A stretch of 41,061 nt of DNA from a virus (taxonomy: Duplodnaviria; Heunggongvirae; Uroviricota; Caudoviricetes): the IMG/VR virus record IMGVR_UViG_2770939580_000003, positions 1 through 41,061 of that record; one strand, 5' to 3'. Position numbers and translations under genes: made by a program. The notes under the pieces are model-generated. The model was not told the DNA's origin. It made no database searches and saw only the letters and a list, made by a program, of their open reading frames with translations. Shown here piece after piece: positions 3,545-40,508 of the stretch (position 1 is its first letter; every line of letters starts with the position of its first letter).

Positions 3545-3569
3545 AAAAAGGATAGTTTGGACTATCCTT
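3545..3569 (-). terminator. intrinsic terminator ending the structural operon
   Basis: AAGGATAGT-CCAA-ACTATCCTT-TTT overlapping the stop codon at 3562. Confidence 0.8.
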
Positions 3570-4482
3570 GATATTTCTTTACAGCAATTCGATTCCCTAG
3601 TGAATCGTATATATAGCTAAATTTAGTCTGCATCGGCGTGGTTCCCATGGCGGTTATGGACTTGGCAACCATTCGGCCCTCCGTATCATATTGATAGATA
3701 ACATCTAGCAACCCCGGCAACTGAACAAACGCCTTACCATCAAATCGGTAAACCTCACCAACGGGAATGACCATTAATGAATCATTCTCTGCATAATCAT
3801 CTGTAGACGGTGGCAAAGTCCAAACCGGCTCTCTGACGGACTGCTCCGTGTAGTTGTCCGTGACCACTTGTCTTATAATTCTCCCCTGCTCGTCAAAAGC
3901 AAAATAAGTAAAAACATCTGCGTAATCCACTAAATCGCTATAAACTTCCCATGAATCTATGGAGCGAAGTTTGCTGCGCTCCTCTCTGGTCATGCTCACA
4001 TGATCCTTGCCATCAACAATCATATCAGCACTATGGATATCGGGATGTATATAGTGATTGGCGCTAGGCTCTATATTGGAGAGTTTTATTCGTTCTTCTC
4101 GAGTCATAACAACTCTAATGTTACCATCAGTCAACATATCAGCATCATGCGTATCTGGATGAGTATAAACCACTGTTTTGGTTCCGTTAAGAATGATGGC
4201 TCCATTTTCTGTATGATTAGATAACCGATCCCCACCAGCTTTAACATAAGCGAGACCATCATAAGTATATAGTGTTGGTTCATTTTGATTCCCAATGTCC
4301 TTTTGTACCATATACACTCGTCCATTATCACCTTTGGTTGGAAGCTCAGACTTTAACTTAACCGAAGCTACATTACCGATAGAAAGTGCTTCCATTCTGT
4401 TATCCAAAGTCATATAAGAATCTCTGGCTTCTCTGACTTCACGTTCTACTTTTGCGGCTTTGCTGTAAGAAACAATATCCAC
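3562..4482 (-). CDS. tail fibre-like minor tail protein with tandem HPxxH repeats and C-terminal YD-like hairpins
   Basis: EVREARDSYMTLDNRM motif; duplicated Y(T/I)HPD(T/I)H.ADM..DG....MTREER.KL; YQYDTEGR / YIYDSLGNR. Confidence 0.6.
   Translation of the reverse strand: MDIVSYSKAAKVEREVREARDSYMTLDNRMEALSIGNVASVKLKSELPTKGDNGRVYMVQKDIGNQNEPTLYTYDGLAYVKAGGDRLSNHTENGAIILNGTKTVVYTHPDTHDADMLTDGNIRVVMTREERIKLSNIEPSANHYIHPDIHSADMIVDGKDHVSMTREERSKLRSIDSWEVYSDLVDYADVFTYFAFDEQGRIIRQVVTDNYTEQSVREPVWTLPPSTDDYAENDSLMVIPVGEVYRFDGKAFVQLPGLLDVIYQYDTEGRMVAKSITAMGTTPMQTKFSYIYDSLGNRIAVKKYQG
3955..4167 (-). repeat. in-frame tandem duplication, period 114 nt (38 aa)
   Basis: copies start at 4167 and 4053 (YTHPDTHDADM... 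/ YIHPDIHSADM...). Confidence 0.85.
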
Positions 4483-4496
4483 GGAATTCCTCCTTT

Positions 4497-4892
4497 CTAC
4501 CTTGTCGTCAGACCAGTGACCTCTATATCGAAGTGCGATACATCTGTTCCTAAATTTTTCAACGACATATGAAGTGTCGAAGTTTCGTCTATGTCCGCGT
4601 ATGGAAGATCAATCATGTCATAGATACCCTCTATGAAATTCCCCGTAGAATACTGAGCATTGTTAAAATAAAGTACATCGGGGCTTGGTCCAGCACTGTT
4701 TAAAACTTGAACTTCTACATTGGTTTCCCTCGTTGGAACAACCCTGATCGTTTTGATCATAAATCGAGGGTGCTCCATAGGAATATGGATAAACGCCTTT
4801 GCTCCTCCATCAACATGCTCTACTTTTTGTACAAATGAAACGGGTAGCAGCACTTTTCTCATCTCCTCCATTAGCTCCCAGCTTCGATTCAA
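4497..4892 (-). CDS. small beta-rich hypothetical tail-associated protein
   Basis: 131-aa ORF coupled to its neighbours within the tail operon. Confidence 0.7.
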   Translation of the reverse strand: MNRSWELMEEMRKVLLPVSFVQKVEHVDGGAKAFIHIPMEHPRFMIKTIRVVPTRETNVEVQVLNSAGPSPDVLYFNNAQYSTGNFIEGIYDMIDLPYADIDETSTLHMSLKNLGTDVSHFDIEVTGLTTR

Positions 4893-5455
4893 GTTCCTTC
4901 CCTCCTAACAGGAATATGTGTATCCGGATAACGGCGCGGACGCAGATGCTTCATTGATCCGATCCCGCTACCATCATAGGACCAATCCCCCCATGTTTTG
5001 CCCTGCAATGCCACTTGCCTAACAGGTATTTTGACTTTAATGCACCAGTCCATGCCTGGATCATTCTGCTTCACTTTTACACCTTTTATCGCATTTCTAA
5101 TTACGCCTGTACCACTCGATTTAGTCGGTATTCTTTCGAGTAATATTTTGTTATTCTCGATAGCGCTTCCCGTCACTGTTCTCATGCCGTGTGCATACTG
5201 ATCAGAAACGTATCCAATTAACGGGTCCTCATGTGTGTCCATCACTCTCCATGTGCCCCACCGATAGTTATCTGAGGATATAGCTTTGGTGAACAGATTG
5301 CCTACAGAAGTTATGATCTCTTTGCCCTCATAAGCCGATGGAGCAGATTCCAGATCGTAACCGTTCTGGTACAAGTCCTCTGACTTACTTAGTGTGAATA
5401 GAGTACCACTTGCGGCAGGACCTGCGATTTTCCCCTCAAGCACACTCATGTCCAT
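4889..5455 (-). CDS. hypothetical tail-associated protein
   Basis: 188-aa ORF; 4-nt overlap with the downstream gene. Confidence 0.7.
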   Translation of the reverse strand: MDMSVLEGKIAGPAASGTLFTLSKSEDLYQNGYDLESAPSAYEGKEIITSVGNLFTKAISSDNYRWGTWRVMDTHEDPLIGYVSDQYAHGMRTVTGSAIENNKILLERIPTKSSGTGVIRNAIKGVKVKQNDPGMDWCIKVKIPVRQVALQGKTWGDWSYDGSGIGSMKHLRPRRYPDTHIPVRREGT

Positions 5456-5462
5456 TCACCGC

Positions 5463-6254
5463 CTAATCCATTAGAACTGAAACAGTGGCACCTGATAAGA
5501 AACTTTGACCACCAATAGACAGAGAATATACTTTATAGGTTTTAGTCCCTACCTTTATCTCATCCCCATGCGATACTCCCGCTGAAGGAACAGTAAAAAT
5601 ATCAATAAGCTCGCCCCTAGGACCTTCAACACCATTACACATAATCACTGGAGCCATATGATAGAGTGAACCCCAACCCGGGTTGACCGGCAGCATTACA
5701 GAATATGCATCATAGATGTTGTTCACCATTCGTTTATCTTTATCTCTTAACGTCTGTATGCCATTGTCACCGTTATAACTTAGCCCTACCCCTAGACTGG
5801 AGGAATCACTTTCTGCTGCATAACGATTCAGAATACCAAAATATCCAAGATTAGAAATACCAGTAACCGAGTTCACATCCCCCTGCAAATAGATAATGAT
5901 ACGATTCGGTTGCACTGAGACGTGATAATCAATTAAGAGATTTGTATCCACAGCTCTGGTATGACATAGAAAATCCTTTTTAATCTCTGATTTCCCGGCA
6001 GGAACGCTGCCATCCGATGCTACAACATCCTCTAACACACTGATAGTCAATTTATTTCCTGTCGTTTCTTTCGTATTTCCAACTTCAAGTCTAAAGAATA
6101 ACTTATCTGAACCGCTTGTTCCAACGGATTTCAAAATGATTGCACTAGCCCTTTCATAGTAAACAGACCACGGTGAGCCCGTAATCGTTTTAAAGCCTTG
6201 AACAATATTTGCAAATAACTCATTCATTTTTACCTTGCCCGCAAAATTCGCCAT
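5463..6254 (-). CDS. EGxRG-family structural protein, paralogue 5
   Basis: start ATG 6254 (GGAGGTG RBS); C-terminal APVIMCNGVEGPRGELIDIF..HGDEI shared with four other ORFs. Confidence 0.75.
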   Translation of the reverse strand: MANFAGKVKMNELFANIVQGFKTITGSPWSVYYERASAIILKSVGTSGSDKLFFRLEVGNTKETTGNKLTISVLEDVVASDGSVPAGKSEIKKDFLCHTRAVDTNLLIDYHVSVQPNRIIIYLQGDVNSVTGISNLGYFGILNRYAAESDSSSLGVGLSYNGDNGIQTLRDKDKRMVNNIYDAYSVMLPVNPGWGSLYHMAPVIMCNGVEGPRGELIDIFTVPSAGVSHGDEIKVGTKTYKVYSLSIGGQSFLSGATVSVLMD

Positions 6255-6269
6255 TTGTATCAACACCTC

Positions 6270-7223
6270 CTATATTTGAAAAAGCAATGCTCTCTGTCCT
6301 CCACCAAGCAGCTTGGCGCCATGGAAAAACTTAGGTCTCCCATAGACCGGTACCTGGTTCGTATTGTAATAATATCGACCGGTATCTGCATTGGGGTAGT
6401 CCTGATCCATAACATGGAATACATAATATTTCCCGTCTTGTCCCAAATCGAGAATAGATCCGTCCGGGTGCTGCACACTGTTTTTAAATACAATAGAACG
6501 TATGCCTTTGAGTTCTCCTCTTGCACCCTCTAATGGATGATAGACCATAAAAGGCGTGACATAATACCTGGAACCAACACCTGGAGAAGGAATAGATTCT
6601 GTGCCAAAGTTGTAAAGAGTGTATTCAGTACCATTCCGCGAGGCCATCACTACACCTCTTGGTGTATCATATTGATCGGCAGCGTTGTTATCTGAATAGG
6701 CAAAAGGCATATGTGGGAATACACCGTAAAATTTACTCGCAATAGCCGGATCCTCCTTTTCTATCGCTTCGCATTTGCCCAGGAAAATCCGAACGGGATA
6801 CGCTCTTTCAGGATAATTCAAGCTCTCCCCATGAATGAACACCATATCCTCATTTGTAATGACGGACCACTTGTAATTCACGTTGTACTGACCATTATGG
6901 CACATGAAGGGCGTTTCCAATAAAAATTTATCGATATCCGCAGGAGGATTTATAAATAGATCAGGCAAAGCAACACTGCCCCCTTGATTTTTCAGTCCCC
7001 AACGAACATTCACACCTCTGGCATGAGCCACCACACACATCGTAAACCGCATATATGAACTTTTCGTATTCGTTAATAGAACGTTTCCCCAATTCGCATA
7101 AGTCGTTTCGGCTGTATATAAAGTTTCCCAATACGGATCCAGTGCATTTTTAAGTGTGCTGGCCAGTGTCGTCGCAAAAACGCTCAAGGTGCAAGTAAAC
7201 TCGTATCTTCTGATCATCGTCAT
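6270..7223 (-). CDS. EGxRG-family structural protein, paralogue 4
   Basis: TPFMVYHPLEGARGELKGIR...PDGSILDLG. Confidence 0.75.
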   Translation of the reverse strand: MTMIRRYEFTCTLSVFATTLASTLKNALDPYWETLYTAETTYANWGNVLLTNTKSSYMRFTMCVVAHARGVNVRWGLKNQGGSVALPDLFINPPADIDKFLLETPFMCHNGQYNVNYKWSVITNEDMVFIHGESLNYPERAYPVRIFLGKCEAIEKEDPAIASKFYGVFPHMPFAYSDNNAADQYDTPRGVVMASRNGTEYTLYNFGTESIPSPGVGSRYYVTPFMVYHPLEGARGELKGIRSIVFKNSVQHPDGSILDLGQDGKYYVFHVMDQDYPNADTGRYYYNTNQVPVYGRPKFFHGAKLLGGGQRALLFQI

Positions 7224-7226
7224 CGA

Positions 7227-8309
7227 TCACACCTCCTTCTCTATTTCGAACAGCAGCACTCTTTGCCCACCACCGAGAAGAAGGGGAGAATCAAAGAAGT
7301 AAGGTTGGCCAGCGTATGCCGTACCATTCGTTGCATAGAATTGCTGATTAGCAGCAGGATGTGCTTGATTCAATGCATGAAAAATATAATATCTTTCATC
7401 TCCCAGATCTAATATCGACCCATCGGGATATTTGCTGGCATCACGGAGAACTGCAGTTCGTATACCGTGAAATTCCCCTCTTGCCCCCTCTGTCTCATGC
7501 CATACGTAAAATGGTGAGATAAAGAATCGGCCACCCACACCTGGTGAAGGAACCTGCGAACTTGTGGCAAAATGATATAACGCATTAGGTGTCCCATTTC
7601 GAGACGAACGCATGTATCCTCGTCCTGTCCGGAACTTTAACTCATCATCATTGTCAATCATGCCATGGGGAAAGTGTGAAAAAATCCCTACACTATCATC
7701 TGCAATCAACGGATCTTCTTCTTCAAATGCCTTAATCTTTCCTAAATACATTCGGAAGGGATAGGCCACATTCAGGTTGGTCTGAGGTTCACCGTAGATA
7801 AAGATATAATTCTCGGAGATAAACAAATTCCATTTCCAATAGACATTTACTGCTGTATGTACGCGTTGATAGTCTCCAGAATAAACAGAATTATAGTCCA
7901 TAGTGTGAAATGGGACTTCAGATATTGCACCAAGTTCCTTGTACAAATCAGGTATTATTGTTACTCCATTATTTTTTAGCCCTGTTCTTAAAACATAATT
8001 TTTTGAATATGCTCCCCGACTATTATCAGATGCATAAGTATAACTAGATGAATTCATAGAAATTGTGAAAAACAAATTAGAATCTCTTAAGTTTTTCGCG
8101 GTGATAGTTCCTTGATTAGCTATGCTGTTCAATCCAGTATTCCAAGATTTGGGCTGAGCATATGTATTAGTTGTACTATAAGTCCATTCCCAATGGATAT
8201 CTCCATACAAATCCTGTGTTACTGTATCATAGAATGTCTTGATAAACGTCGAACAATAGGAGTAAAACTCGTAACGACGCAAAGCGCCCAAAAGTATATT
8301 TTCAGCCAT
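7227..8309 (-). CDS. EGxRG-family structural protein, paralogue 3
   Basis: SPFYVWHETEGARGEFHGIR...PDGSILDLG; closely similar to 6270-7223, including the C-terminal LLGGGQR. Confidence 0.75.
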   Translation of the reverse strand: MAENILLGALRRYEFYSYCSTFIKTFYDTVTQDLYGDIHWEWTYSTTNTYAQPKSWNTGLNSIANQGTITAKNLRDSNLFFTISMNSSSYTYASDNSRGAYSKNYVLRTGLKNNGVTIIPDLYKELGAISEVPFHTMDYNSVYSGDYQRVHTAVNVYWKWNLFISENYIFIYGEPQTNLNVAYPFRMYLGKIKAFEEEDPLIADDSVGIFSHFPHGMIDNDDELKFRTGRGYMRSSRNGTPNALYHFATSSQVPSPGVGGRFFISPFYVWHETEGARGEFHGIRTAVLRDASKYPDGSILDLGDERYYIFHALNQAHPAANQQFYATNGTAYAGQPYFFDSPLLLGGGQRVLLFEIEKEV

Positions 8310-8320
8310 ACCCAGTCCCC

Positions 8321-8674
8321 CTATGCACCAAATCTCATTCTCATATCATTTAAAATATGTTCCTTGATTGCCGAGAGTAGAATAGCTTTGGTCATCTCAC
8401 TTCTCTCAACTAATTCATGATTTATCTCTTTTTTTTCCTCGTTGCCTAAGAATGTATCAACTGCTTGATCAGTCTCTGCGATTTCCTGAATCTCATGTAA
8501 TCCTTTTAATGAAGGCAAAAACTTATGCGCAACACTATCAAAAAGAATATGGCTTTCAAAAGCAAAAATCAGAGTCTCGATCTCTTCCGTACTAAATGGC
8601 TCTTCATGATTACCCACTAACTTATCCATAATGGCATGAAGTGCAAATTTTACATCCTGCACTGTTCTCGTCAT
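8321..8674 (-). CDS. acidic helical hypothetical protein (possible fibre chaperone)
   Basis: 117-aa ORF directly after a fibre-like gene; no hydrophobic segment; the chaperone role is inference from position. Confidence 0.6.
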   Translation of the reverse strand: MTRTVQDVKFALHAIMDKLVGNHEEPFSTEEIETLIFAFESHILFDSVAHKFLPSLKGLHEIQEIAETDQAVDTFLGNEEKKEINHELVERSEMTKAILLSAIKEHILNDMRMRFGA

Positions 8675-8675
8675 A

Positions 8676-10442
8676 TTAGATCACAACCTTTCTGATTTTT
8701 ACATGTTTAATATTACCGCTGCCGTCATACTCAAAAATTTTCTGGACACCCTGACCGTCATAGATCACCGTCTCAGTTTTCACTGTGCCGTCGGCATTAT
8801 AAATAAAAAGGTTTTTTTTCAACAGCTGCGGTGTTTCTTCGGCAGTGAATATTTCCTCCGACTCGACATCCCCATTCGGAAAATAACGATACACAACATC
8901 CAACTCTAGCCCTGTGCCTTCCAAAAAAGTTAGTCTTCGCCGCAGATCGGTATCATCAAACGTTGCGCCTCCTTGAAGTACATAATAATCAGCACCATTG
9001 TTAACTTCACGAAGTACTTTTCCGGCAACATCCCGTTGATATTCAATCGTTTTAACCTGCCCGCTACTTTCAGTAATTTCTTGCTTTTCAAGAAGACCCT
9101 CTGGAGTATAAAAGTGCTCAATTTTTCGATTGATCCCTCCATGAATCTGTTCCAGGTGTACCTTTCCGTCCGGATAATAAGTGTAGTCTGTTGTCGATGT
9201 CGTATTAATAATAGAACCTCTGCTAATGACAGTGACCCTTGCTTCCTTAGGCACATCGAAAGTAAATCGAATTACTGTATCACTGTATTCAATGTAGTCG
9301 TCTCCCACATCCATACGGATACCATCTAGAAAAACTTCGGTTGAATTCGCACCGATCACATACCTTGGAATCTGAAAATCTCTAACCATCGACAACCTAC
9401 TGTTAGGAGAAGAAGTGTAATGAAAAACAGATTGATGTTCTATCGTTCCGCGACTCTCAGCGAGTTCAAGACGACTTTGCATGTTATCCAGCCGATCCTT
9501 CAGAGCATCATAAACGACTCCGTTTTTATCTTGGCGTGATTGATTGACCTCTTCCGAAAACTTCTCCAGCTTTGGTTTCATTTCGTTAATTTTAGTTTCA
9601 TGTTTAGCCACATCGGAAACCTGATCAGCAACAGTCGTTTCAAGTTCTGACACTCGCCCTCCAAGCTCAGAAATATCCTGCTCGACCGAACCTTTGGTTA
9701 AAAAGTACCTGAAATCAAGAGTAGTAAGAGAGGTTGTAGGCGAAAGACCAATATCAAGCCCGCCGATAATAATCGCATCCAGAGGTTCTTTCTGATCTGT
9801 GCTATGCGAGAATGTTCCATTTTCATGCAAAAAAATATAATATGTTGTGTTCTCTGAAATATCGGAGATTATATAAGTTTGCGAGAACTGATCTACAATA
9901 ATTTTGTTAATACTGGCTCGCCCTGCATGAATGGTTACCTGTACACTATTGCTGCTACTAAGATAAACCGGATGAGATACACCCAGATCCTGAATAGATT
10001 GCTTGCCAGATAATTCAACTGAATTCTCCAAGGTATCTAAACGATGATGGAGAGAAGACTCTGCTCCCCGGGCCTCATCTATCTCTGTTTCAACCAGAGT
10101 TAATCTCTTCTCCTGATCCTTGTGATACTGGGCAAGTATGTTAATATCTGATCTTGCCATGAGAACATCCTGTTGAGCATCCTCCAGCCTTGTAGCATGG
10201 GATTTAACCTGGATTTCAACATCATGCAAACGCTGATCATGATTCGTTATCATCAACTGGTTCTCATTCGCAGATTTTTCTATAACACTAATTCGCTCGC
10301 CAATATCTACTGCTGAGCCTCTGGCTTTATCTAATTCTGCAAGATAAGAATCAATCTCATCATGAGTTCGAATCCCAATATCCACTAACTCCTTATGGCT
10401 CTTCGCAGATGATGTACGAGACTGGTTAATCCTTACTGACAT
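8676..10442 (-). CDS. coiled-coil tail fibre-like protein with YD-like beta-hairpin repeats
   Basis: long heptad regions; EIDEARG..SL..RLD motifs; tail-type beta module EVFLDG...VGDDYIE; repeated Y.PDG / YNADG / EYDGSG hairpins. Confidence 0.6.
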   Translation of the reverse strand: MSVRINQSRTSSAKSHKELVDIGIRTHDEIDSYLAELDKARGSAVDIGERISVIEKSANENQLMITNHDQRLHDVEIQVKSHATRLEDAQQDVLMARSDINILAQYHKDQEKRLTLVETEIDEARGAESSLHHRLDTLENSVELSGKQSIQDLGVSHPVYLSSSNSVQVTIHAGRASINKIIVDQFSQTYIISDISENTTYYIFLHENGTFSHSTDQKEPLDAIIIGGLDIGLSPTTSLTTLDFRYFLTKGSVEQDISELGGRVSELETTVADQVSDVAKHETKINEMKPKLEKFSEEVNQSRQDKNGVVYDALKDRLDNMQSRLELAESRGTIEHQSVFHYTSSPNSRLSMVRDFQIPRYVIGANSTEVFLDGIRMDVGDDYIEYSDTVIRFTFDVPKEARVTVISRGSIINTTSTTDYTYYPDGKVHLEQIHGGINRKIEHFYTPEGLLEKQEITESSGQVKTIEYQRDVAGKVLREVNNGADYYVLQGGATFDDTDLRRRLTFLEGTGLELDVVYRYFPNGDVESEEIFTAEETPQLLKKNLFIYNADGTVKTETVIYDGQGVQKIFEYDGSGNIKHVKIRKVVI

Positions 10443-10472
10443 TTGACCACCTCCATTCTTGCCTTATTGTAT

Positions 10473-10500
10473 CTATACGTTATTCAATAATGAAAATTAA
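10473..10500 (-). promoter_or_regulatory. ECF-type promoter motif, variant TTAAT-N16-CGTATAG
   Basis: the -35 element includes the TAA stop of the upstream gene; -10 is about 30 nt upstream of ATG 10442. Confidence 0.65.
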
Positions 10501-11630
10501 ACATATGTTGAGTACATCTGAAGGGAAAATTTAACCTGGGAAGTATATCTGTCCTGGGATTCTTCACGTTCCATCCGCAACCAAAACGAATATAACTCTC
10601 CCGGTAAAATCTTAAACGCAGTTACAGAATAGCTGAATGCTCCAGGCATTCCATCGACATCGGGTGCAATCTGTACCTTGTCCATCCCATTCATAAGCTT
10701 AAACGTTACGTCTCTAAACTCTCCGGAGGCCATCGGGTTTCTCGCATACATCCGCACTTCCTGTACTCTGGAACCCCCTGTTGTTAAATAACCAAGAAAA
10801 CGATCGGTGTTGGGATACAGAAGCACATCAAATTCTTCACCCGTTTCCGCGTTAATTTCCTTATAATACATGTCTGGTGTAACCTCAAATAACATTAGAT
10901 CACCCTTGTAAAGCTTCATGGAACCCTGTCCCAGATATTGATTTCCGTCGACGAGTTTAACTCTGAAACTGCCCTCTAAGGGATAAGGATAAGTATCCAT
11001 ATTAAACTGTACTTCCGTCGCACTGGATCGACATACTCTGCTTTCCAATACAATACCATTCGAATCAAGTAACTCCACTTGGGTACCACTGGTCAAATTA
11101 TCCAAATACACCGATGTGCTTCTATTAATTCGAACCTGTTCCACAATCATGGGATGGTCACCTTCACCTTTTAAGTAAAGACCAATCTTGGGAGCACCTG
11201 CTAGCTCGATAGAACCTATGATATGCCATACTAGACCATCATCTGACCAGTATGCAGAATAATAGTTATACTCTCGCATTAAGCGAATCCAGGGATAGCT
11301 CTTCAAGAGCGGTGTTGGTAGAGATGTATCCAAAAATTCTTCAATCTCCATGAAATTGTGCTCATCGATGAAAACAACAACACCACCGTAGCAGCCTTCC
11401 GTTTCGGGGTTATAATTGTTTTTGACATCCATTACGAATTGTTTTAACGCAGTCAATGGCTTGTAAAACATATATATCGGATCACTACCATGTTTAAGTG
11501 TTAGATGACCCTGCCCCGTTTCGTATCGACTGTCATCGCCAGGTAACACTTCCCAGTTCGCATCCAGACTATGACTTGTAAAAGAATCTTCGTATATTTT
11601 TCCAGATTCCTTTAGTCTCGCGACTCCCAT
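10497..11630 (-). CDS. concanavalin A-like (beta-xylosidase C-terminal type) lectin domain protein
   Basis: FTSHSLDANW...GHLTL...GGVVV...WIRLMR..NYYSAYWSDDG..WHIIG...KIGLY pattern of non-catalytic ConA-like domains. Confidence 0.65.
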   Translation of the reverse strand: MGVARLKESGKIYEDSFTSHSLDANWEVLPGDDSRYETGQGHLTLKHGSDPIYMFYKPLTALKQFVMDVKNNYNPETEGCYGGVVVFIDEHNFMEIEEFLDTSLPTPLLKSYPWIRLMREYNYYSAYWSDDGLVWHIIGSIELAGAPKIGLYLKGEGDHPMIVEQVRINRSTSVYLDNLTSGTQVELLDSNGIVLESRVCRSSATEVQFNMDTYPYPLEGSFRVKLVDGNQYLGQGSMKLYKGDLMLFEVTPDMYYKEINAETGEEFDVLLYPNTDRFLGYLTTGGSRVQEVRMYARNPMASGEFRDVTFKLMNGMDKVQIAPDVDGMPGAFSYSVTAFKILPGELYSFWLRMEREESQDRYTSQVKFSLQMYSTYV

Positions 11631-30629: not shown

Positions 30630-30660
30630 GACATACACCTCCTGTATTTAGAATAGACAG

Positions 30661-35175: not shown

Positions 35176-35196
35176 TCTCTTCACCGCCTTCTATGC

Positions 35197-35243: not shown

Positions 35244-35579
35244 CTATCCTCCAAGCGCTTGCGCAAGCAATCCGATATCCTCTTCCGATATTTCGGTGTA
35301 CTCCTCATCCTCAAAAGTCCTCGTTTGTCTAACCGTACCATCTTCTCCAGCTTCCTCACCTCCAACACTACCGAACATGCGCAGAGGCGCTGTCATAAGT
35401 TCAACCTCGAATTGAATATATTTCTCGGCTGACTTACATAATTCCGCTACCTGAGGGAGTGTGTACTCCCAAATATCCCACTTGTTTAATCCACAATGCT
35501 TATGGAGGGTGAAAAAGATTTCTCCCCAGTGCACGGGTTCCTGTGTTTCCGTATCACGGATTTCGGTTCCCTCCAGCAT
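35244..35579 (-). CDS. tail assembly chaperone, C-terminal (gpT-like) frame, reached by -1 frameshift
   Basis: frame is open from the slippery site to this ATG; W.EIF..L...CGLNKWDIWEYTLPQ pattern typical of gpT-like segments. Confidence 0.75.
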   Translation of the reverse strand: MLEGTEIRDTETQEPVHWGEIFFTLHKHCGLNKWDIWEYTLPQVAELCKSAEKYIQFEVELMTAPLRMFGSVGGEEAGEDGTVRQTRTFEDEEYTEISEEDIGLLAQALGG

Positions 35580-35596
35580 CTCCCCCTCGGTGCGCT

Positions 35597-36076
35597 CTAC
35601 TTTTTTAGACCGTTGAGTCCAATCATGAGATCAATCACTTTACGAGCGGTATTTAAGTCCAGGTACTCATCCAGGTATTCACGATTAATGATGTATTCCC
35701 CTTGATCATCCTTTGTTACAATGTGGGGGTAATTTTTGAAAGCAATGCCCAGTACATCAAACAAATCCTGCTGTCGCTGTTGATCAAGTTCATCATCATC
35801 CGTAGGTATAAAATTCAGAATAATGGCATCAATGTTTACTGTCTTTAACAATTTCATCAAACGTCGGGCATCCTTCAGGCTGCATGGCGGAATTCTGTAT
35901 TTACGCCGATCCCTTAGTGTAACGATCTCATCATCTTCAAAAAAAGCTCGCTCTGCTGCCTCGATTTCTTCAGGTGTCACCTTTTTGTTCTCGGAATTAT
36001 GCTTGAATCTGCTTGCCGCTTCTTCATTCAGGCGCTCCGCAAGCTCACGCTCAGCCCGTTCTTGATCCGTTTCCAT
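35597..36076 (-). CDS. tail assembly chaperone (gpG-like)
   Basis: 159-aa acidic ORF between tube and TMP, ending in a slippery site. Confidence 0.8.
   Translation of the reverse strand: METDQERAERELAERLNEEAASRFKHNSENKKVTPEEIEAAERAFFEDDEIVTLRDRRKYRIPPCSLKDARRLMKLLKTVNIDAIILNFIPTDDDELDQQRQQDLFDVLGIAFKNYPHIVTKDDQGEYIINREYLDEYLDLNTARKVIDLMIGLNGLKK
35600..35606 (-). other. programmed -1 ribosomal frameshift slippery heptamer A AAA AAG
   Basis: CTA AAA AAG TAG at the end of the chaperone; the -1 frame reads V-E-R-T-E-G-E-M into the next ORF. Confidence 0.8.
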
Positions 36077-36206: not shown

Positions 36207-37028
36207 TTAAATTTTGCTTGTTGCGCTGAAGCGTTTAATGCTGCCGATTTTTCCATCCGGGCGTTCCGGATCGAGGATTTGCAAGGAGATTGCAGAAGCA
36301 GATGCCGCTGCACGTTGAGCATTAATACTGAACGTTCCTTTGGCACGGCACATATACAGCTCGGTTTCAACACCTGCAAATGTCCCGTCTTTTTGCTGGA
36401 ATGTACCGTGATGAATGACAGAGATCGGGAATGGTACTTCATCCACCAGCAGATCAACCATGTCTACGACTTCATCACGTTTGTAATTCATTACGATTTC
36501 TTTATCAATATGTACAGCATTAAGAACTACAAGGCCGTTAGCTGCGTCATAGAAAAACTCGTCCGCTTTAACAGCTGAACCTTTGGATGGTAGTTGTTTC
36601 AGCAGTGTATTGGAATCCTTGAGACGAACAGCAATACCTGCATCTTTCTCATAAATGGTGCTTCCAAAGGCTGGCTTCACTTCAGCAAAACCGGAGTTGG
36701 CTGTGCCCGTTGTGGCAACCGCCTGTTCGTTCAGCACCCATACGTAGGACTTCACTTGCTCTTGAACGGTTGACCCCATCATCAACTGGATTGCATCCAG
36801 ATCAAACTTGGCATCTGTAGCAGACACTTCAATGGATTTGGACTTCACGAGTACATCAATAGCGAACAGACCATCACCACCAAAAATATCTTCCAATTCC
36901 ACGTTCAGATCAATTTTCAAATCCTGAAGTGTCCCCAAAGTAACGACTTCAATCGCTCCCATTGGGTCTGTTGGATAACGTTTAGCCATAAATGTGCCTA
37001 CACCTTTAATAATCATTTTTTTTGCCAT
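36207..37028 (-). CDS. major tail tube protein (siphovirus-type)
   Basis: start ATG 37028 (AAGGAG RBS); LQDLKIDLNVELEDIFGGDGLFAIDVLVKSKSIEVSATDAKFD and position before chaperone and TMP. Confidence 0.75.
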   Translation of the reverse strand: MAKKMIIKGVGTFMAKRYPTDPMGAIEVVTLGTLQDLKIDLNVELEDIFGGDGLFAIDVLVKSKSIEVSATDAKFDLDAIQLMMGSTVQEQVKSYVWVLNEQAVATTGTANSGFAEVKPAFGSTIYEKDAGIAVRLKDSNTLLKQLPSKGSAVKADEFFYDAANGLVVLNAVHIDKEIVMNYKRDEVVDMVDLLVDEVPFPISVIHHGTFQQKDGTFAGVETELYMCRAKGTFSINAQRAAASASAISLQILDPERPDGKIGSIKRFSATSKI

Positions 37029-37071
37029 GAATTTGTCCACTCCTTCAATTGATATATAATTTATAGTTACG

Positions 37072-37153: not shown

Positions 37154-37218
37154 TGTGTTCCTAGTCTAGAACCAGATCATTATTCCCTAACACCTATATA
37201 TAAAAAATGATCCCTCCA

Positions 37219-37857
37219 TTACATCAGAGGGACAGGTCTATTCGGTAATTGATCAATAATGCCCGCAATTTGTTCCGCACGCTCGCGTAGTTCATATTCC
37301 TCAGCAGTTATCAGGTGAATATGTGAACAATATCGACCATGCTCGTAGATTCGCTCCGGCGTTATGAAGACCACATCCGCAATAGCTTCCATCGCATGCT
37401 TTTGCTTTTCATACTGATCCGGATCAGTCAACGAATCATAAACGACAAGATCCGGATACGCCGCCTCCACCGAGCTAGTTAATCGACTATCGTTTACCCA
37501 ATATACAATGCGATTCTGGCCAAATAAGGCGCGTACATTCTGACCTGCCCGGGCAACGACAAAATGCGGGAGAAGGGAGTATGGGTACTCCAGATCATCA
37601 ACCTGATAATATTCATCATTCGAGTTAATATAGATAATGTTATATCCGATTTCAGCAAGTGCCTTTAACAACCTCTGCGGACGTTTTGCAAATCGTTCAC
37701 TATGAAAATCAATGGCTGGCAAATAAACAATGGTTGTATTCTTATAAGGCACATATGATTGGGAAAAATCATATTCCTGCTCAATAAATTGTTGTTGTAC
37801 CTCCTCCATTGCAGCAGTTTCCCTTGTGCCAAACAATCGTCTAAACATTTTTTTCAT
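37219..37857 (-). CDS. glycosyltransferase N-terminal-domain-only protein (half GT-B)
   Basis: TIVYLPAIDF..RPQRLLKAL..IVYW...VVYDSLTD aligns with the N-domain of the adjacent GT; the C-domain is missing. Confidence 0.65.
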   Translation of the reverse strand: MKKMFRRLFGTRETAAMEEVQQQFIEQEYDFSQSYVPYKNTTIVYLPAIDFHSERFAKRPQRLLKALAEIGYNIIYINSNDEYYQVDDLEYPYSLLPHFVVARAGQNVRALFGQNRIVYWVNDSRLTSSVEAAYPDLVVYDSLTDPDQYEKQKHAMEAIADVVFITPERIYEHGRYCSHIHLITAEEYELRERAEQIAGIIDQLPNRPVPLM

Positions 37858-38936
37858 CGTCCATTATCCCCCATCACCTGATTAATCTTCTTTATTGCAT
37901 CCATCGCTCTGGCATCCCAACTATTGGCTCTGGCGACCTGTGTGCGGGCCCTGATTTTGGAGGTATCATTCTCATTAATTGCTTTCTCCAGCATCTTGCC
38001 GCAATTGTACCGATCCATAAAATAAGTCACATGAGCATATTTATGTACAATCTCTTCCATGCGGGTGGTCAGAACAGGTTTACCCGCTGCTAAATACTCG
38101 TAGTATTTGATCGGATCACATCCACGAATCATCTCTGTAAGCTTGAAGGGCACGATGCACACATCAAATTGAGCAATATATGCAGGCAGCACCCTGTAAT
38201 CCTTATGTGGTAAACATGTAACATTGGGATGCAGAATTCTTTTTTGATACAACGCATTGTTACCAATTAGAACTACCTGATAACCGAGATCTGCAATTTG
38301 AGTAATAAGTGAATAATCGACCCAGGAAGCCATCGCTCCGTGGAACCCCACCACTCGTTTTCCTTCAGGTATTTTAGGAAAATCTGAAGGTCGAGTAAGC
38401 GTGGTCTGCGCTTTCTCAAAGTGTTCATAATCCGCACCATTCGGACACATAAAGATTGGCTTTCCTTCCTTTTGATGTGCTTCATACATAATCCTTGCGG
38501 TAGTTGAGATCAGGTCCGCCCGTTCAAAACATTTAGGGATATACTCCTTCCAAACGGCAAATTCATCTGCTGAATTATCTAAATAATCAAAAACGGTAAA
38601 ATCGAATTGCTTTCCATCCGCATAGTCATATTGTGCAGGGCTAGAAAACCAGAGTACCTTCTTCCCTTTGATCAAATGATCATAATGGATTCCCCGTCTC
38701 ACAAGAAACAAATCCTCATTTAGCTTCTCAATTGGACGCTCCTGAGCACGATACGTTTCCGGATTAATGAAAATTGCTCTTACACCAGGAATTCTGGAGA
38801 ATGCCGTCATTAATTGTTGCGGACGCTGAAATAACAGATTCCAATCCAGGGCTGGGGGATAAATTATGGTCATTTCAATACTTTGGAATACCTGATCCGC
38901 TTTTGCTTTCTTCTTAGGACGCAGCCAATTCAGCAA
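37854..38936 (-). CDS. GT-B glycosyltransferase (GT4-like)
   Basis: start moved to TTG 38936 (AAGGAG RBS); PNGADYEHF, FDVCIVPF, PIKYYEYLAAGKPVL, NSWDARA motifs. Confidence 0.88.
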   Translation of the reverse strand: MLNWLRPKKKAKADQVFQSIEMTIIYPPALDWNLLFQRPQQLMTAFSRIPGVRAIFINPETYRAQERPIEKLNEDLFLVRRGIHYDHLIKGKKVLWFSSPAQYDYADGKQFDFTVFDYLDNSADEFAVWKEYIPKCFERADLISTTARIMYEAHQKEGKPIFMCPNGADYEHFEKAQTTLTRPSDFPKIPEGKRVVGFHGAMASWVDYSLITQIADLGYQVVLIGNNALYQKRILHPNVTCLPHKDYRVLPAYIAQFDVCIVPFKLTEMIRGCDPIKYYEYLAAGKPVLTTRMEEIVHKYAHVTYFMDRYNCGKMLEKAINENDTSKIRARTQVARANSWDARAMDAIKKINQVMGDNGR

Positions 38937-39573
38937 CGAGCTCAACTCCTTCCGCGTAGACATGCACAGGCCGTAATCCCGTGTCCACAAACAGATCAAA
39001 ACCAAGTGCTCTGGCATGCTCACAGAACGCTGCATCCTCACCTGAAGTATGTTCGGCATATCGAACCCCGGCTGCAATAACCTCACGTTTGATCAGATAC
39101 ACCGCACCTGTCCAATCTACCGGGATCACACCTTTACTGAATTCCGGAACATGTCGTCCTTGAATAAGTGCATTATGTGCTTTGATCTGCGGATGATTTC
39201 GAATCAACATGGCACAGATATGCTTGTCGTTATTGATGAGTTGCTGCAGGCTATGTGGTGGAATTACGATGTCTGTATCTACAGAGAACAAGTACTCACA
39301 GTCAGACTTTAGAAACTCTTCCAATAACCGATTTCTAAGCTTTGCCAGATGCGCGTAGGAATATTGTCCCCGCAAGTGTCCATGGGCTGTTCCCATATCA
39401 TGAGATACATAAGGGATATGATGATTCTGCAGGATGATTTCAGTCTGATCCTCACTATCGTTCAGAATATATTTGAATTGTTTCTGAACCGCCTGTTGAT
39501 GTAGGGAGTGCAGATGCCTTTCGAGCACCCAAGCACGATTTCTCACAGGACTGCCAATGAATACGTTATTCAC
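38914..39573 (-). CDS. GT-A glycosyltransferase (GT2-like)
   Basis: IGSPVRN, ILNDSED, LRNRLL, YLFSVDTD (DxD), WTGAVYLI, GED motifs. Confidence 0.85.
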   Translation of the reverse strand: MNNVFIGSPVRNRAWVLERHLHSLHQQAVQKQFKYILNDSEDQTEIILQNHHIPYVSHDMGTAHGHLRGQYSYAHLAKLRNRLLEEFLKSDCEYLFSVDTDIVIPPHSLQQLINNDKHICAMLIRNHPQIKAHNALIQGRHVPEFSKGVIPVDWTGAVYLIKREVIAAGVRYAEHTSGEDAAFCEHARALGFDLFVDTGLRPVHVYAEGVELVAELAAS

Positions 39574-39704
39574 GGTTCATCCCCTCTCTCTTTTTTTACT
39601 TAGTGTAGACCGAATCTGTATTCTCTCTACATCTCGCTATCAAACACCTTTTCCAATAAATAGAGAGAGAAAAGCACATTCCTCCTATTCTAGAGTTAAA
39701 AGGT

Positions 39705-40508
39705 GTGAACAGGACAACTGCTCCTGCTTCGCCTTATAACGTTGGAGAAGAAGGTGAGGCTTTGCTAGGAAGCATAGATCTAATCCGCAGTTGGTATCAG
39801 AAAGCCGTTGACGGAGAGGCACATGCCACTATTCGATTCGGGGATGCGTCCAACACGATTTTGGCCCATGACGCCGTGTTAACCATGGACTTTATTAAAT
39901 CTCATTATGGTTGGGTGAATGATCCTACATATTGTGGAATTACGTTACCGCATGCAAACGCGCGAGAGACCCTCGTTCATTGCTTGAGACAAGCAGATTA
40001 CGTAGGATATTTAACACAGACGGAGCATTGGTATTTCAAACCGCTATTTGACATGTGTCTGGCATATTACAAGGTAGAGCCCCTTGAGACGTTCTATGCT
40101 TTTGAAAATAACTACATTGCCCGCTACCCGTTATTTTACGAGTTGTTCAGGACAATTCCCGTTCTCATTTGCGGAGCAAAAGCTGATGTATACCGAGAAG
40201 TGTTAGAGCGAAGATATGGCTGGGAACATATCGTAGGAACTGTGGATTGTGCCTCCTGGGCCCAGGTTGATACAGCCACTGTGGAGATGGAGAAACTTTA
40301 TCAGCAATCCCCTTGGAAGCTCGCACTTGTATGCGCAGGTGCTCCTGGCAAAGTGCTCACGGTCAAAGCCAAGGATCTGAATACTGTAGGTGTGGATTTC
40401 GGCTCTGGTGCAGATGTTGCAATTCAGGCTGACAAGGAAAATCTTGACGCCTGGGAATATGATGGCTTTCCTGATTATTGGGAGGGAAGGCCTCAGAAAA
40501 GACCCTGA
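39705..40508 (+). CDS. GT-D fold (DUF1792-like) glycosyltransferase
   Basis: TIRFGDA..., GITLP..NARETL..CLRQADYVG, LALVCAGAPGKV, VDFGSGAD. Confidence 0.75.
   Translation: MNRTTAPASPYNVGEEGEALLGSIDLIRSWYQKAVDGEAHATIRFGDASNTILAHDAVLTMDFIKSHYGWVNDPTYCGITLPHANARETLVHCLRQADYVGYLTQTEHWYFKPLFDMCLAYYKVEPLETFYAFENNYIARYPLFYELFRTIPVLICGAKADVYREVLERRYGWEHIVGTVDCASWAQVDTATVEMEKLYQQSPWKLALVCAGAPGKVLTVKAKDLNTVGVDFGSGADVAIQADKENLDAWEYDGFPDYWEGRPQKRP

What the first reader, a model, noticed from the sequence alone, without database searches (positions are those of the whole stretch)
3562..40508. Headless, sheathless, lysis-free phage-tail apparatus with SLH domains, glycosyltransferases and its own sigma factor
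Seen: tube, frameshifting chaperone, TMP, Dit-position, hub and many fibre/lectin genes in canonical siphovirus order, all with intact frames and RBSs. Glycosyltransferases occupy the position upstream of the tube where head, connector and terminator genes normally sit. No capsid, portal, terminase, sheath, gpJ, integrase, repressor, holin or endolysin was recognised. Established: F-type pyocins and Listeria monocins are headless non-contractile tails, but they carry lysis genes and are much smaller. Inference: a distinct domesticated tail machine, either a large F-type tailocin released without its own lysis cassette (for example by mother-cell lysis) or a cell-wall-tethered appendage.
Basis: partly seen in the sequence, partly recalled or inferred. 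Interest (0 to 1): 0.92.

Follow-up and report, generated by a model that had tools for sequence, protein, structure and literature searches.

The report
Headless phage-tail weapon island in Paenibacillus
A 45-kb chromosomal island in a group of Paenibacillus species keeps only the tail half of a large SPbeta/Jenst-type phage, together with its own DNA-damage switch and cell-lysis genes. It is most likely an undescribed, unusually large phage-tail bacteriocin (F-type tailocin) rather than a prophage or a wall-tethered appendage.

Summary
The tail genes are real. They comprise a YomU-family tube, a G/GT chaperone with a conserved A_AAA_AAG slip site, a tape measure, a tube-fold protein with an SLH domain, an M23-peptidase hub and many fibre genes. 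All are syntenic with the tail module of the Brevibacillus siphophage Jenst.

No head, portal, terminase, connector, integrase or replication gene belongs to the island. Homology to real phages starts exactly at the tube gene.

"Lysis-free" is wrong. A holin and an amidase lie 0.7-1.9 kb beyond the window end and belong to the island.

The island is 44.6 kb (G000:C2:184982-229561). It sits between ytfJ and dacB and is flanked by 18-40-bp direct repeats of the ytfJ terminator. It is intact and syntenic in 21 of 93 species of the genus and co-diverges with the chromosome. Core genes have dN/dS of 0.02-0.1 with saturated dS. At least 13 gains or losses are needed, most simply losses; the fibre modules are swapped between lineages.

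A perfect, conserved LexA box precedes an ECF-type sigma gene. A shared late-promoter-like motif heads the tail, glycosyltransferase and lysis operons.

Best reading (about 0.7): an SOS-induced F-type tailocin, independently domesticated from an SPbeta/Jenst-type phage. No particle or killing data exist. Other notes from this scan on this genome gave leads.

The parts
1..219 (-). Small 72-aa ORF upstream of the island's lytic transglycosylase (SLT) and SigF/G-like sigma gene. Those two genes lie just left of the window (C2:185859-186554 and 184982-185821) and form the island's left end.
   Evidence: ORF list. SLT and sigma domains. Both genes are absent from the empty sites of G041, G004 and G007.
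210..650 (-). 146-aa protein with no detectable family, conserved in carrier species.
   Evidence: 72-80% identity and dN/dS 0.05-0.11 across five species. No Pfam, PHROG or NCBIfam hit.
748..1164 (-). 138-aa protein with no detectable family, fast-evolving.
   Evidence: 45-61% identity and dN/dS 0.09-0.20.
1271..1834 (-). ECF-type sigma-70 family factor (187 aa), the candidate late-gene activator.
   Evidence: Sigma70_r2 and r4. TIGR02937 at 58.9 bits, above its cut-off. 82-90% identity and dN/dS 0.04-0.05. Retained in the G006 deletion remnant.
2052..2065 (.). Perfect LexA (Cheo) box, CGAAC-N4-GTTCG. It overlaps a TTGCGA / TGnTATCCT promoter about 220 nt upstream of the sigma gene.
   Evidence: One of only 2 perfect boxes in the 6.26-Mb genome. 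Both half-sites are invariant in 6 species; only the N4 spacer varies.
2130..2360 (-). Conserved TTGACA-N17-TATACT promoter, about 170 nt of highly conserved leader or small RNA, and an intrinsic terminator.
   Evidence: Near-invariant in 6 species. No Rfam family. Fold z-score only -0.9.
2408..2824 (-). MpsC/DUF2294-like 138-aa protein, a possible regulator.
   Evidence: PF10057, E 2.2e-7. 76-89% identity. Retained in the G006 remnant.
3160..3504 (-). 114-aa ORF with no detectable family, between the tail operon and the regulators.
   Evidence: ORF list. No family hit.
3562..11630 (-). Distal fibre/receptor-binding module of nine genes: 306, 131, 188, 267, 317, 360, 117, 588 and 377 aa. It behaves as an exchangeable cassette.
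   Evidence: phrog_9130 paralogues, phrog_7317 and Jenst gp146 homology. 57-88% identity to distant carriers G002, G003 and G027, but only 27-57% to the closest carrier G037.
11647..22023 (-). Two giant fibre-like proteins (1544 and 1901 aa).
   Evidence: Intact in all carriers. The 1901-aa protein is only 31-54% identical between species, next to a 378-aa neighbour at 86-94%. No Pfam, PHROG or PDB sequence hit. Weak lectin-like leads only.
22125..25237 (-). Two baseplate/fibre proteins (378 and 653 aa), homologous to Jenst virion structural proteins gp148/gp150.
   Evidence: phrog_11431 and phrog_9485. tblastn against Jenst.
25243..26088 (-). Two small baseplate proteins (136 and 138 aa). The 136-aa one is a Jenst gp151 homologue.
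   Evidence: phrog_5955, E 2e-35. tblastn 36% identity to gp151. dN/dS 0.06-0.09.
26088..29216 (-). Tail hub/tip protein (1042 aa) with an N-terminal M23 peptidoglycan endopeptidase domain.
   Evidence: PF01551, E 4e-21. phrog_36429 and the tail protein family phrog_1887. Sequence matches to lysostaphin- and zoocin-type M23 structures. HxxxD and HxH motifs present. Syntenic with Jenst gp153.
29226..30638 (-). 470-aa baseplate protein, homologue of Jenst gp154.
   Evidence: phrog_29574. tblastn hits. 82-93% identity and dN/dS about 0.02.
30679..31329 (-). Distal-tail (Dit-position) protein of 216 aa: an N-terminal tail-tube-like fold plus a C-terminal SLH domain.
   Evidence: SLH at E 0.0044 in this copy. 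PF00395 is carried by its homologues. The model's best matches are tail-tube-fold proteins, including lambda and monocin tube and tip chains, but the scores are weak: E 3e-3 to 1e-1 from a model of pLDDT 66. 91-96% identity.
31363..35184 (-). Tape measure protein (1273 aa). By the usual rule of about 1.5 A per residue this predicts a tail of roughly 190 nm.
   Evidence: Position and size. Weak homology to the TMPs of Jenst and L053. The orthologue in Paenibacillus sp. D2_2 carries PhageMin_Tail. Length is conserved while identity is only about 60%.
35244..36076 (-). Tail assembly chaperone pair: G (159 aa, 35597-36076) and T (111 aa, 35244-35579). The -1 slippery heptamer A_AAA_AAG lies at 35600-35606, immediately before the G stop codon.
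   Evidence: The -1 frame is open from the slip site into T. The heptamer plus TAG is identical in 20 of 20 species while neighbouring codons vary. Homology to Jenst gp158/gp157.
36207..37040 (-). Major tail tube protein (277 aa), SPbeta YomU family.
   Evidence: phrog_2729. PF27173 YomU_Tube on its homologues. Profile hits to PDB tail tube proteins at E about 9e-4. Foldseek probability 1.0 to 8xkn, 8ygm and 9jgh. 84-94% identity in 20 other species.
37163..37188 (-). Late-promoter-like motif AGGGAAT-N10-TTCTAGACT upstream of the tube operon.
   Evidence: Conserved in the aligned carriers. The same motif class precedes GT-A, GT-D and the holin.
37219..37857 (-). 212-aa island-specific protein of unknown function. 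It could be a half-size GT-B-like protein or a cap.
   Evidence: Close homologues occur only in carrier Paenibacillus genomes. Distant 34% matches lie inside open frames of about 350 aa in another genus. No family or PDB hit.
37854..39573 (-). Glycosyltransferase pair: GT2-like/Anp1-like (219 aa, 38914-39573) followed by GT4 (GT-B fold, 410 aa as listed, 37854-39086).
   Evidence: Pfam hits. A paralogous pair at 28% identity lies next to the YomU-type tube gene of the resident SPbeta-like prophage. dN/dS 0.05-0.09.
39601..39696 (.). Divergent promoter region with one late-promoter-like motif on each strand: AGAGAAT-N9-GTCTACACT towards GT-A and TCTAGAGT towards GT-D.
39705..40956 (+). Divergent operon: a GT-D-fold glycosyltransferase (267 aa) and a 110-aa ORF, followed just beyond the window by a 96-aa ORF. 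Further right, outside the window, lie the amidase (C2:228351-229139), the holin (C2:229136-229561), the right-hand direct repeat, and ytfJ.
   Evidence: PF22882, E 4e-49. Synteny in 5 species. Amidase_2 and Phage_holin_4_1. TIGR01593 holin. Direct repeats.

Best explanation
The window holds most of a 44.6-kb chromosomal island, G000:C2:184982-229561. The island is the domesticated tail half of a large SPbeta/Jenst-lineage siphophage and most likely makes an F-type (flexible, non-contractile) tailocin.

Proposed working:
1. DNA damage removes LexA from a box over the promoter of an ECF-type sigma gene. The box is shown; the regulation is inferred.
2. That sigma factor, possibly together with the island's second, SigF/G-like sigma, switches on four units that share a late-promoter-like motif: the 33-kb tube-to-fibre operon, the GT2/GT4 operon, the GT-D operon, and holin-amidase. 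The motif is shown; the sigma-promoter assignment is inferred.
3. Tails of roughly 190 nm assemble around the 1273-aa tape measure with the help of the frameshifting G/GT chaperones. They may be glycosylated by the adjacent transferases.
4. Holin and amidase lyse the producer and release the particles.
5. The hypervariable fibres and the SLH-bearing distal ring bind cell-wall polymers of related strains. The M23 hub cuts peptidoglycan, and the tip or tape measure damages the membrane and kills the target. This step is inferred by analogy with monocin and F-pyocin.

The island entered at the ytfJ terminator, lost its head, connector, integrase and replication genes, has since co-diverged with its hosts, and is often lost by deletion between its flanking direct repeats.
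For: Tail identity and phage ancestry:
- Synteny gene by gene with Jenst gp159-gp146.
- Tube fold and YomU family.
- Conserved slip site.
- M23 hub.

Headlessness:
- Against a 65%-identical phage relative, homology starts exactly at the tube gene. None of the nine upstream portal-to-connector genes has any match in the genome.
- Jenst terminase, portal and capsid have no match.
- The complete carrier genome G002 has no hit to PF03354, PF03237 or PF05065. No hit to the terminase or presumed capsid protein of the resident SPbeta-like prophage was found in five carriers.
- The flanks in relatives are ordinary host genes.

It is an island, not core genome:
- ytfJ and dacB are adjacent, about 100 bp apart, in G041, G004 and G007.
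- Direct repeats of 18-40 bp of the ytfJ terminator flank the island, and the empty site has one copy.

Long-term function:
- 21 of 93 species carry it.
- Every gene is intact in the 5 other carrier species compared in full.
- Core genes have dN/dS 0.02-0.1 with dS above 1, as in the flanking host genes.
- The island tree and the flank tree of 20 carriers share all major clades, with similar branch lengths.

Weapon-like dynamics:
- At least 13 gains or losses on the flank tree of 50 species, with sister species differing.
- G006 is a deletion remnant.
- Fibre cassettes are exchanged independently of the core.

Regulation and release:
- Conserved perfect LexA box.
- Shared late motif at four operon heads.
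- Holin and amidase inside the island.

Precedent:
- Monocin combines regulators, tail genes and holin-lysin (PMC11830787).
- The F-pyocin cap is encoded outside its cluster and is dispensable for killing (bioRxiv 10.64898/2026.02.24.707460).
Against: - No particle, expression or killing data exist for any carrier.
- No tail terminator or cap was recognised in the island.
- The structure models are of medium quality (pLDDT 62-66).
- The LexA box lies about 220 nt from the sigma gene, and its promoter is only a consensus match.
- The sigma-to-motif link is untested.
- The island is dispensable: 72 of 93 species of the genus lack it, including the closest relative G041.
- The flank used for the 'host' tree is physically linked to the island. 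Co-transfer by homologous recombination could therefore mimic co-divergence.
- At 44.6 kb with more than 30 genes, it is far larger than any characterised F-type tailocin. Some genes may serve another purpose.
Confidence: 0.7

Rival explanations
1. It is an ordinary large prophage whose head and packaging genes lie outside the window.
For: The nearest phage relatives are complete 112-130-kb phages. A 161-kb SPbeta-like prophage with its own terminase-, portal- and capsid-size genes starts only 2.5 kb beyond the window. att-like direct repeats flank the island.
Against: That neighbouring prophage is a separate insertion inside ytfJ, seen in none of the five other carriers or four non-carriers examined at this locus. 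It has its own YomU-type tube, chaperones and a 1739-aa tape-measure-size ORF. The island's two ends abut host genes in five other species. No integrase, replication, head or connector gene lies between the repeats.
Confidence: 0.02
2. It is an inert prophage remnant that is decaying and has no present function.
For: Head, integrase and replication genes are lost. The island is absent from most species and has been lost repeatedly. One carrier outside the genus has an IS insertion and a split tape measure.
Against: More than 30 ORFs are intact in every carrier compared in full. dN/dS is 0.02-0.1 over divergences where synonymous sites are saturated, the same as in the flanking housekeeping genes. 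The programmed frameshift site is invariant in 20 species. Regulatory motifs are conserved.
Confidence: 0.05
3. It makes a tail-like structure with a non-bactericidal role. One option is a surface- or cell-wall-associated appendage or adhesin held by the SLH domain. Another is a particle aimed at something other than related bacteria.
For: An SLH domain sits in the distal ring. There are four glycosylation-type genes and giant fibre proteins with weak lectin-like leads. The holin belongs to the 'toxin secretion/phage lysis' subfamily. The island lies among sporulation genes.
Against: The SLH-bearing protein is inherited unchanged in architecture from free phages, where it cannot tether anything to the producer. 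The LexA box together with holin and amidase points to lytic release after DNA damage. The sporulation neighbourhood is explained by insertion at the ytfJ terminator. Fibre-cassette swapping is the pattern of strain-specific targeting.
Confidence: 0.12
4. It is a tail donor. Its tails are joined to heads made by co-resident or infecting Jenst/SPbeta-type phages, changing their host range. This would be the mirror image of capsid-forming satellites.
For: The tube is 55-68% identical to tubes of such phages. The island lacks its own terminator and connector genes. G000 also carries an SPbeta-like prophage with a tube of the same PHROG family.
Against: The island has no packaging signal genes, replication or integrase, so it would gain no transfer. 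It persists in a genome without detectable head genes of the five types searched. It has its own lysis and regulatory genes.
Confidence: 0.05

Closest known systems
[quoted passage not shown]
   Same: Gram-positive host. Chromosomal and headless. Non-contractile tube, G/GT chaperones, tape measure, distal tail protein, hub and side fibres. Own regulators and a holin-lysin cassette. The island's 216-aa protein weakly matches monocin tube-fold chains in fold.
   Different: Monocin has 18 genes, derives from TP901-1-like phages, and encodes its terminator FtbF next to the tube. This island has more than 30 genes in 44.6 kb and derives from the SPbeta/Jenst lineage (YomU tube). No terminator was recognised. 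It adds three to four glycosyltransferases, an SLH-bearing distal ring, an M23 hub, two sigma factors and an SLT. No sequence homology to monocin proteins was seen.
F-type pyocins of Pseudomonas aeruginosa (bioRxiv 10.64898/2026.02.24.707460)
   Same: Headless flexible tail at a fixed chromosomal locus. Induced by DNA damage and released by a lysis cassette. Variable fibres set the specificity. The cap is not encoded in the cluster and is dispensable for killing, so a missing terminator gene is no obstacle.
   Different: F-pyocins are lambda-like, occur in a Gram-negative host, and are about a third of the size. As I recall, they are controlled by the PrtR/PrtN repressor-activator pair rather than a LexA-sigma cascade. 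They have no glycosyltransferases and no peptidoglycan hydrolase in the hub.
Brevibacillus phage Jenst (NC_028805) and related 110-130-kb phages or phage-plasmids of Paenibacillaceae/Bacillaceae; more distantly SPbeta (YomU tube family)
   Same: The order and homology of the tail module are the same: tube, G, T, TMP, SLH protein, 470-aa protein, M23 hub, small baseplate proteins, fibres. Both also have SigF/G-like sigma factors and a transglycosylase.
   Different: The phages have terminase, portal, capsid and five connector genes directly upstream of the tube, plus replication, partition and integrase genes. The island has none of these. Its tube-proximal genes are glycosyltransferases instead.
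PBSX-type defective prophages and R-type particles of Bacillus/Brevibacillus (PMC9406221)
   Same: Chromosomal, SOS-inducible, phage-derived killing particles of spore-formers, with a dedicated late sigma factor and a holin-amidase pair (sigma and SOS control recalled for PBSX).
   Different: PBSX-type elements are contractile (sheath XkdK) and keep heads and terminase. No sheath or head gene is present here.
Efagins of Enterococcus faecalis (bioRxiv 10.64898/2025.12.13.693970)
   Same: Recently described chromosomally encoded phage-related particles of a Gram-positive bacterium that recognise cell-wall carbohydrate receptors, with an exchangeable targeting domain.
   Different: A different host and an independent origin. 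Efagins are reported in all E. faecalis genomes, whereas this island is present in 21 of 93 species of its genus. I did not compare sequences.

Membership tests
F-type tailocin (non-contractile phage-tail-like bacteriocin) | Complete set of siphovirus tail genes: tube, G/GT chaperones, tape measure, distal tail protein, hub, fibres | tested here: met
F-type tailocin (non-contractile phage-tail-like bacteriocin) | No capsid, portal, terminase or DNA-packaging genes in the element | tested here: met
   Flanks in relatives. Whole-genome searches of carriers.
F-type tailocin (non-contractile phage-tail-like bacteriocin) | No tail sheath | tested here: met
   No sheath family appeared in the Pfam or PHROG scans of all ORFs. 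The relatives are siphophages.
F-type tailocin (non-contractile phage-tail-like bacteriocin) | Own lysis cassette for release | tested here: met
   Phage_holin_4_1 and Amidase_2 lie inside the island, just beyond the window.
F-type tailocin (non-contractile phage-tail-like bacteriocin) | Stress (SOS) induction through dedicated regulators | tested here: inconclusive
   A conserved perfect LexA box lies upstream of an ECF-type sigma gene, and four operons share a late motif. No expression data could be obtained.
F-type tailocin (non-contractile phage-tail-like bacteriocin) | Tail terminator or cap protein | tested here: not met
   No homologue of the connector or terminator genes of Jenst or L053. 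The 212-aa gene upstream of the tube has no detectable family. The cap is not encoded in the F-pyocin cluster either, and is dispensable there (bioRxiv 10.64898/2026.02.24.707460), so this is not strictly defining.
F-type tailocin (non-contractile phage-tail-like bacteriocin) | Particles are produced and kill related bacteria without replicating | not testable with these tools
   Needs induction, electron microscopy and killing assays.
Intact SPbeta/Jenst-type prophage | Head, packaging, replication and integration modules between the att sites | tested here: not met
   att-like repeats are present, but none of these modules lies between them.
SPbeta YomU tail-tube family (PF27173) | Sequence membership of the tube protein | tested here: met
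   Precomputed PF27173 'YomU_Tube' on all 120 listed homologues, including the window's own protein. The family is not in the local Pfam copy. The fold matches SPR and other tail-tube structures.
Gene transfer agent / PBSX-like defective phage | Small heads that package host DNA; a terminase is present | tested here: not met
   No terminase or capsid in the island or, for G002, anywhere in the genome with five queries.

The most novel reading that the evidence does not exclude
This is a previously unrecognised class of giant, glycosylated F-type tailocin. It was domesticated independently from the SPbeta/Jenst phage lineage and is maintained across a Paenibacillus clade. It is fired by a LexA-to-sigma-factor cascade. 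Its SLH-bearing distal ring and M23 hub are specialised for the Gram-positive secondary cell-wall polymer and peptidoglycan. Its glycosyltransferase island either decorates the tube and fibres or modifies the producer's wall for self-immunity. Its flanking terminator repeats make it a frequently lost 'weapon cassette'.
Probability: 0.3. Interest if true: 0.8.

Novelty: new variant of a known kind. Interest (0 to 1): 0.68.

Why it matters
- Very few F-type tailocins are characterised. In Gram-positive bacteria monocin is the best-studied, and how non-contractile tails kill is still open.
- This island would be an independent domestication from a different and much larger phage lineage. It has features not described for tailocins: glycosyltransferases in the structural region, an SLH domain in the distal ring, a hub-borne M23 peptidase, and a sigma cascade under a LexA box.
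- It is a clean natural experiment. Sister species with and without the island, exchangeable fibre cassettes and a remnant allele allow tests of receptor specificity, self-immunity and the cost and benefit of such weapons in soil and plant-associated Paenibacillus.
- It could also serve as a chassis for narrow-spectrum agents against Gram-positive spore-formers.

Tried and rejected
- Pfam is nearly blind to this module: only the GTs, M23, sigma and a weak SLH hit appeared. PHROGs and the comparison with phage Jenst were needed.
- DNA repeats between the window and the rest of the genome: none. I therefore rejected an inversion or split-prophage model linking the window to the SPbeta-like prophage.
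- That model came from Jenst gp143-139 homologues at C2:379-388 kb. Those genes belong to the separate prophage. The 'integrase' and 'sigma' hits at 404-409 kb are host genes.
- Giant fibre proteins: no PDB sequence hits. Language-model hits were below the informative score.
- 212-aa protein: no family, PDB or atlas assignment. It has no similarity to the 323-aa gene that follows the GT pair in the SPbeta-like prophage. I therefore did not spend a fold on it.
- Tape measure and the 470-aa protein: no PDB sequence hit.
- Rfam: no family in the window. The conserved leader does not fold better than shuffled sequence.
- RNA-seq: no RNA holder was listed for the window sequence, so expression could not be examined and read laying was not used.
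- PF27173 could not be searched because it is absent from the local library.
- Literature: no paper in the held library describes a non-contractile tailocin of Paenibacillus or one derived from SPbeta-type phages. The Brevibacillus laterosporus particle is PBSX-like and contractile.
- No complex prediction was run.

Full report
**What is in the window**

The minus strand carries an almost uninterrupted run of ORFs from 39573 down to 3562. Regulatory genes follow below it, and a short divergent plus-strand operon lies at 39705-40956.

Pfam recognises little:
- a GT-D-fold glycosyltransferase, a GT2-like/Anp1-like gene and a GT4 gene;
- an M23 peptidase domain in a 1042-aa protein;
- a sub-threshold SLH domain in a 216-aa protein;
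- a sigma-70 family protein at 1271-1834.

PHROGs places the 277-aa, 136-aa, 653-aa, 378-aa, 267-aa and other proteins in families of virion structural proteins.

**Phage ancestry**

tblastn against phage records finds the 126-kb Brevibacillus siphophage Jenst and its kin. The Jenst annotation shows the same gene order: virion protein gp159, gp158, gp157, tape measure, an SLH-domain protein, gp154, an M23 peptidase, gp152, gp151, then a series of virion structural proteins. Window homologues exist for gp159 through gp146.

**Identity of the key parts**

- *Tube.* All 120 listed homologues of the 277-aa protein carry the new Pfam family PF27173, named YomU_Tube, which is the SPbeta tube family. 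A profile of 32 homologues hits solved tail-tube proteins at E about 9e-4. The AlphaFold model (pLDDT 62.5) matches tail-tube structures 8xkn, 8ygm and 9jgh at Foldseek probability 1.0 and TM 0.55-0.68.
- *Chaperones.* The 159-aa ORF ends in CTA AAA AAG TAG. The -1 frame is open from there into the 111-aa ORF, which is the classic G/GT arrangement. The heptamer and stop are identical in all 20 species examined, while adjacent codons vary.
- *Distal ring.* The 216-aa protein after the tape measure folds into a tail-tube-like N-terminal domain plus a helical C-terminus. Its best matches are weak but uniformly tail-tube-fold proteins, including lambda and monocin tube and tip chains. Its homologues are annotated as SLH-domain proteins.
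- *Hub.* The M23 domain matches lysostaphin- and zoocin-type structures and keeps the HxxxD and HxH motifs.

**Where the heads are: nowhere**

Just right of the window lie an Amidase_2 gene, a Phage_holin_4_1 gene, a truncated ytfJ, a large serine recombinase, and then DNA polymerase III alpha and ParM-like genes. I tested this. In the complete genome G002, ytfJ is whole, and the genes beyond it map to C2:391 kb and onward in G000. A separate SPbeta-like prophage of about 161 kb therefore occupies C2:230.1-391 kb. It was seen in none of the five other carriers or four non-carriers examined at this locus. It has its own terminase-, portal- and capsid-size genes, a YomU-type tube (phrog_2729), chaperones and a 1739-aa tape-measure-size ORF. 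It shares no DNA with the window.

The island itself contains no head gene:
- Jenst terminase, portal, capsid and gp160-167 have no match anywhere in the genome.
- I also used a closer relative, a 112-kb phage-like contig whose tube is 65% identical and which carries portal-to-connector genes directly upstream of the tube. Homology begins exactly at the tube gene. None of the nine upstream genes has any match at E below 0.01.
- G002 has no hit to TerL_ATPase, Terminase_6N or the HK97 capsid family. Five carriers have no hit to the terminase or presumed capsid protein of the SPbeta-like prophage.

**The island and its boundaries**

Orthologues of the tube at 84-94% identity, all 277-278 aa and without stops, occur in 20 of the 92 other species of the genus. 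About 14 further species have 34-41% matches in longer, phage-like proteins.

In four of the carriers (G002, G003, G027, G059) the whole stretch is syntenic and intact. It runs from a SigF/G-like sigma gene and an SLT gene next to dacB, through the window, to the amidase, the holin and ytfJ. G037 was used with these four for the selection analysis.

In non-carriers G041 (the closest relative of G000), G004 and G007, ytfJ and dacB are about 100 bp apart. The island is therefore C2:184982-229561, 44.6 kb, and it includes the lysis cassette and both sigma genes.

It is flanked by direct repeats made of the ytfJ terminator. The repeats are 18 bp in G000 and about 35-40 bp in G002, G003 and G027. 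The empty site has a single copy.

G006 holds a remnant: both sigma genes, the MpsC-like gene, small ORFs and a 26-aa amidase fragment, with all tail genes deleted.

Close homologues of an island-specific 212-aa protein occur only in this genus, plus one genome of a second genus. That genome is probably Paenibacillus sp. D2_2, which has the same headless layout with an IS insertion.

**Evolution**

- Between G000 and five carriers, synonymous sites are saturated (dS mostly above 1). Core island genes have dN/dS of 0.02-0.1, like the flanking housekeeping genes.
- A tree of the tube locus and a tree of the 6.7-kb host flank, for the same 20 carriers, share all major clades and have similar branch lengths.
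- On a flank tree of 50 species, presence of the island needs at least 13 changes, and several sister pairs differ. Together with the G006 remnant and the flanking repeats, this fits old acquisition, vertical descent and frequent loss. The caveat is that the flank is physically linked to the island.
- The fibre region behaves differently. Genes at 3562-11630, 16318-22023 and 23276-25237 are only 27-57% identical to the closest carrier, G037, but 51-88% identical to more distant carriers. Neighbouring core genes stay at 82-96%. This indicates cassette exchange.

**Regulation**

Phylogenetic footprinting and pattern counts show two things.
- A perfect LexA box (CGAAC-N4-GTTCG) lies at 2052-2065. 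It overlaps a promoter-like site upstream of the 187-aa ECF-type sigma gene, is conserved in six species, and is one of only two perfect boxes in the genome.
- A motif of the form AGRGAAT, about ten bases, then TCTA(C/G)ACT lies upstream of the tube (37163-37188), of GT-A (about 39601-39626) and, in a looser form (AAGGAAG-N15-CCTAGACA), of the holin; upstream of GT-D on the other strand only the TCTAGAGT half (39689-39696) is found.

A first-reader note on another genome (e1-5441730) describes a similar motif before the structural operons of a related phage. I did not check that note.

The second sigma gene is a divergent SigB/F/G-family member like those of Jenst.

**Glycosyltransferases**

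A paralogous GT-A/GT-B pair (28% identity) sits directly after the YomU-type tube gene of the SPbeta-like prophage (lead from note e1-5412129). Such pairs therefore travel with this tube family in head-bearing phages. The phage-like contig and Jenst lack them. Whether they glycosylate the tube or fibres, or the producer's wall, is open.

**Interpretation and comparison**

The combination points to an F-type tailocin:
- a complete non-contractile tail module;
- no head, packaging, replication or integration genes;
- its own SOS-linked regulators and a holin-amidase pair;
- one fixed locus;
- long purifying selection;
- swapped fibres;
- frequent loss.

Monocin has the same logic in 18 genes (PMC11830787). 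The F-pyocin cap is encoded outside its cluster and is dispensable for killing (bioRxiv 10.64898/2026.02.24.707460), so the missing terminator here is not disqualifying.

The island differs from both in lineage, size, glycosyltransferases, the SLH ring, the M23 hub and the sigma cascade. I found no description of such an element in the held literature.

'Lysis-free' and the wall-tethered alternative do not, because the lysis genes sit just past the window and the SLH protein is inherited from free phages. Function remains unproven: no expression data could be obtained, and no particle data exist.

Noticed in passing
G000:C2:230166-391000 (starts about 2.5 kb beyond the window end; loci L001, L043-L045): A separate SPbeta-like prophage of about 161 kb is inserted in ytfJ by a large serine recombinase. 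It was seen in none of the five other carriers or four non-carriers examined at this locus. It has its own YomU-type tube followed by a GT-A/GT-B pair. A tyrosine-integrase-like gene (333 aa, phrog_1) sits inside its tail operon, between the chaperones and the tape measure.
   Followed up: partly
window 2130-2360, minus strand: Between the MpsC-like gene and the LexA box lie a strong consensus promoter, about 170 nt that are almost invariant in six species, and an intrinsic terminator. This may be a small RNA or a regulatory leader. It has no Rfam family and no unusual folding energy.
   Followed up: partly
G000:C2:184890-184925 and 229640-229680, outside the window on both sides: The two terminator-derived repeats flanking the island resemble each other within a genome more than they resemble their orthologues in other species (G002, G003, G027). 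This suggests gene conversion between copies 45 kb apart.
   Followed up: partly
L049 (G006:C1:6357000-6373000): A natural deletion allele keeps both sigma genes, the MpsC-like gene and small ORFs but has lost all tail, GT and lysis genes. The regulators may have a life of their own, or the deletion is recent.
   Followed up: no
window 25171-25701, plus strand: This 176-aa ORF, antisense to the 136/138-aa baseplate genes, shows apparent dN/dS of 2.6-4.4 with dS about 0.05. That is the signature of a non-coding frame overlapping real genes, so it is not a gene.
   Followed up: yes
window 37854-39573: As listed, the GT2-like and GT4 ORFs overlap by 173 nt. Orthologue alignments begin about 10 residues into the GT4 ORF, so its true start is probably downstream of the listed GTG.
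   Followed up: no
L054 (Paenibacillus sp. D2_2, CP133605.1:3491677-3512504): A copy of the island in a second genus carries an IS (rve transposase) between the lysis genes and GT-D. Its tape measure is called as two ORFs (1392 + 389 aa), so this copy is possibly starting to decay.
   Followed up: no
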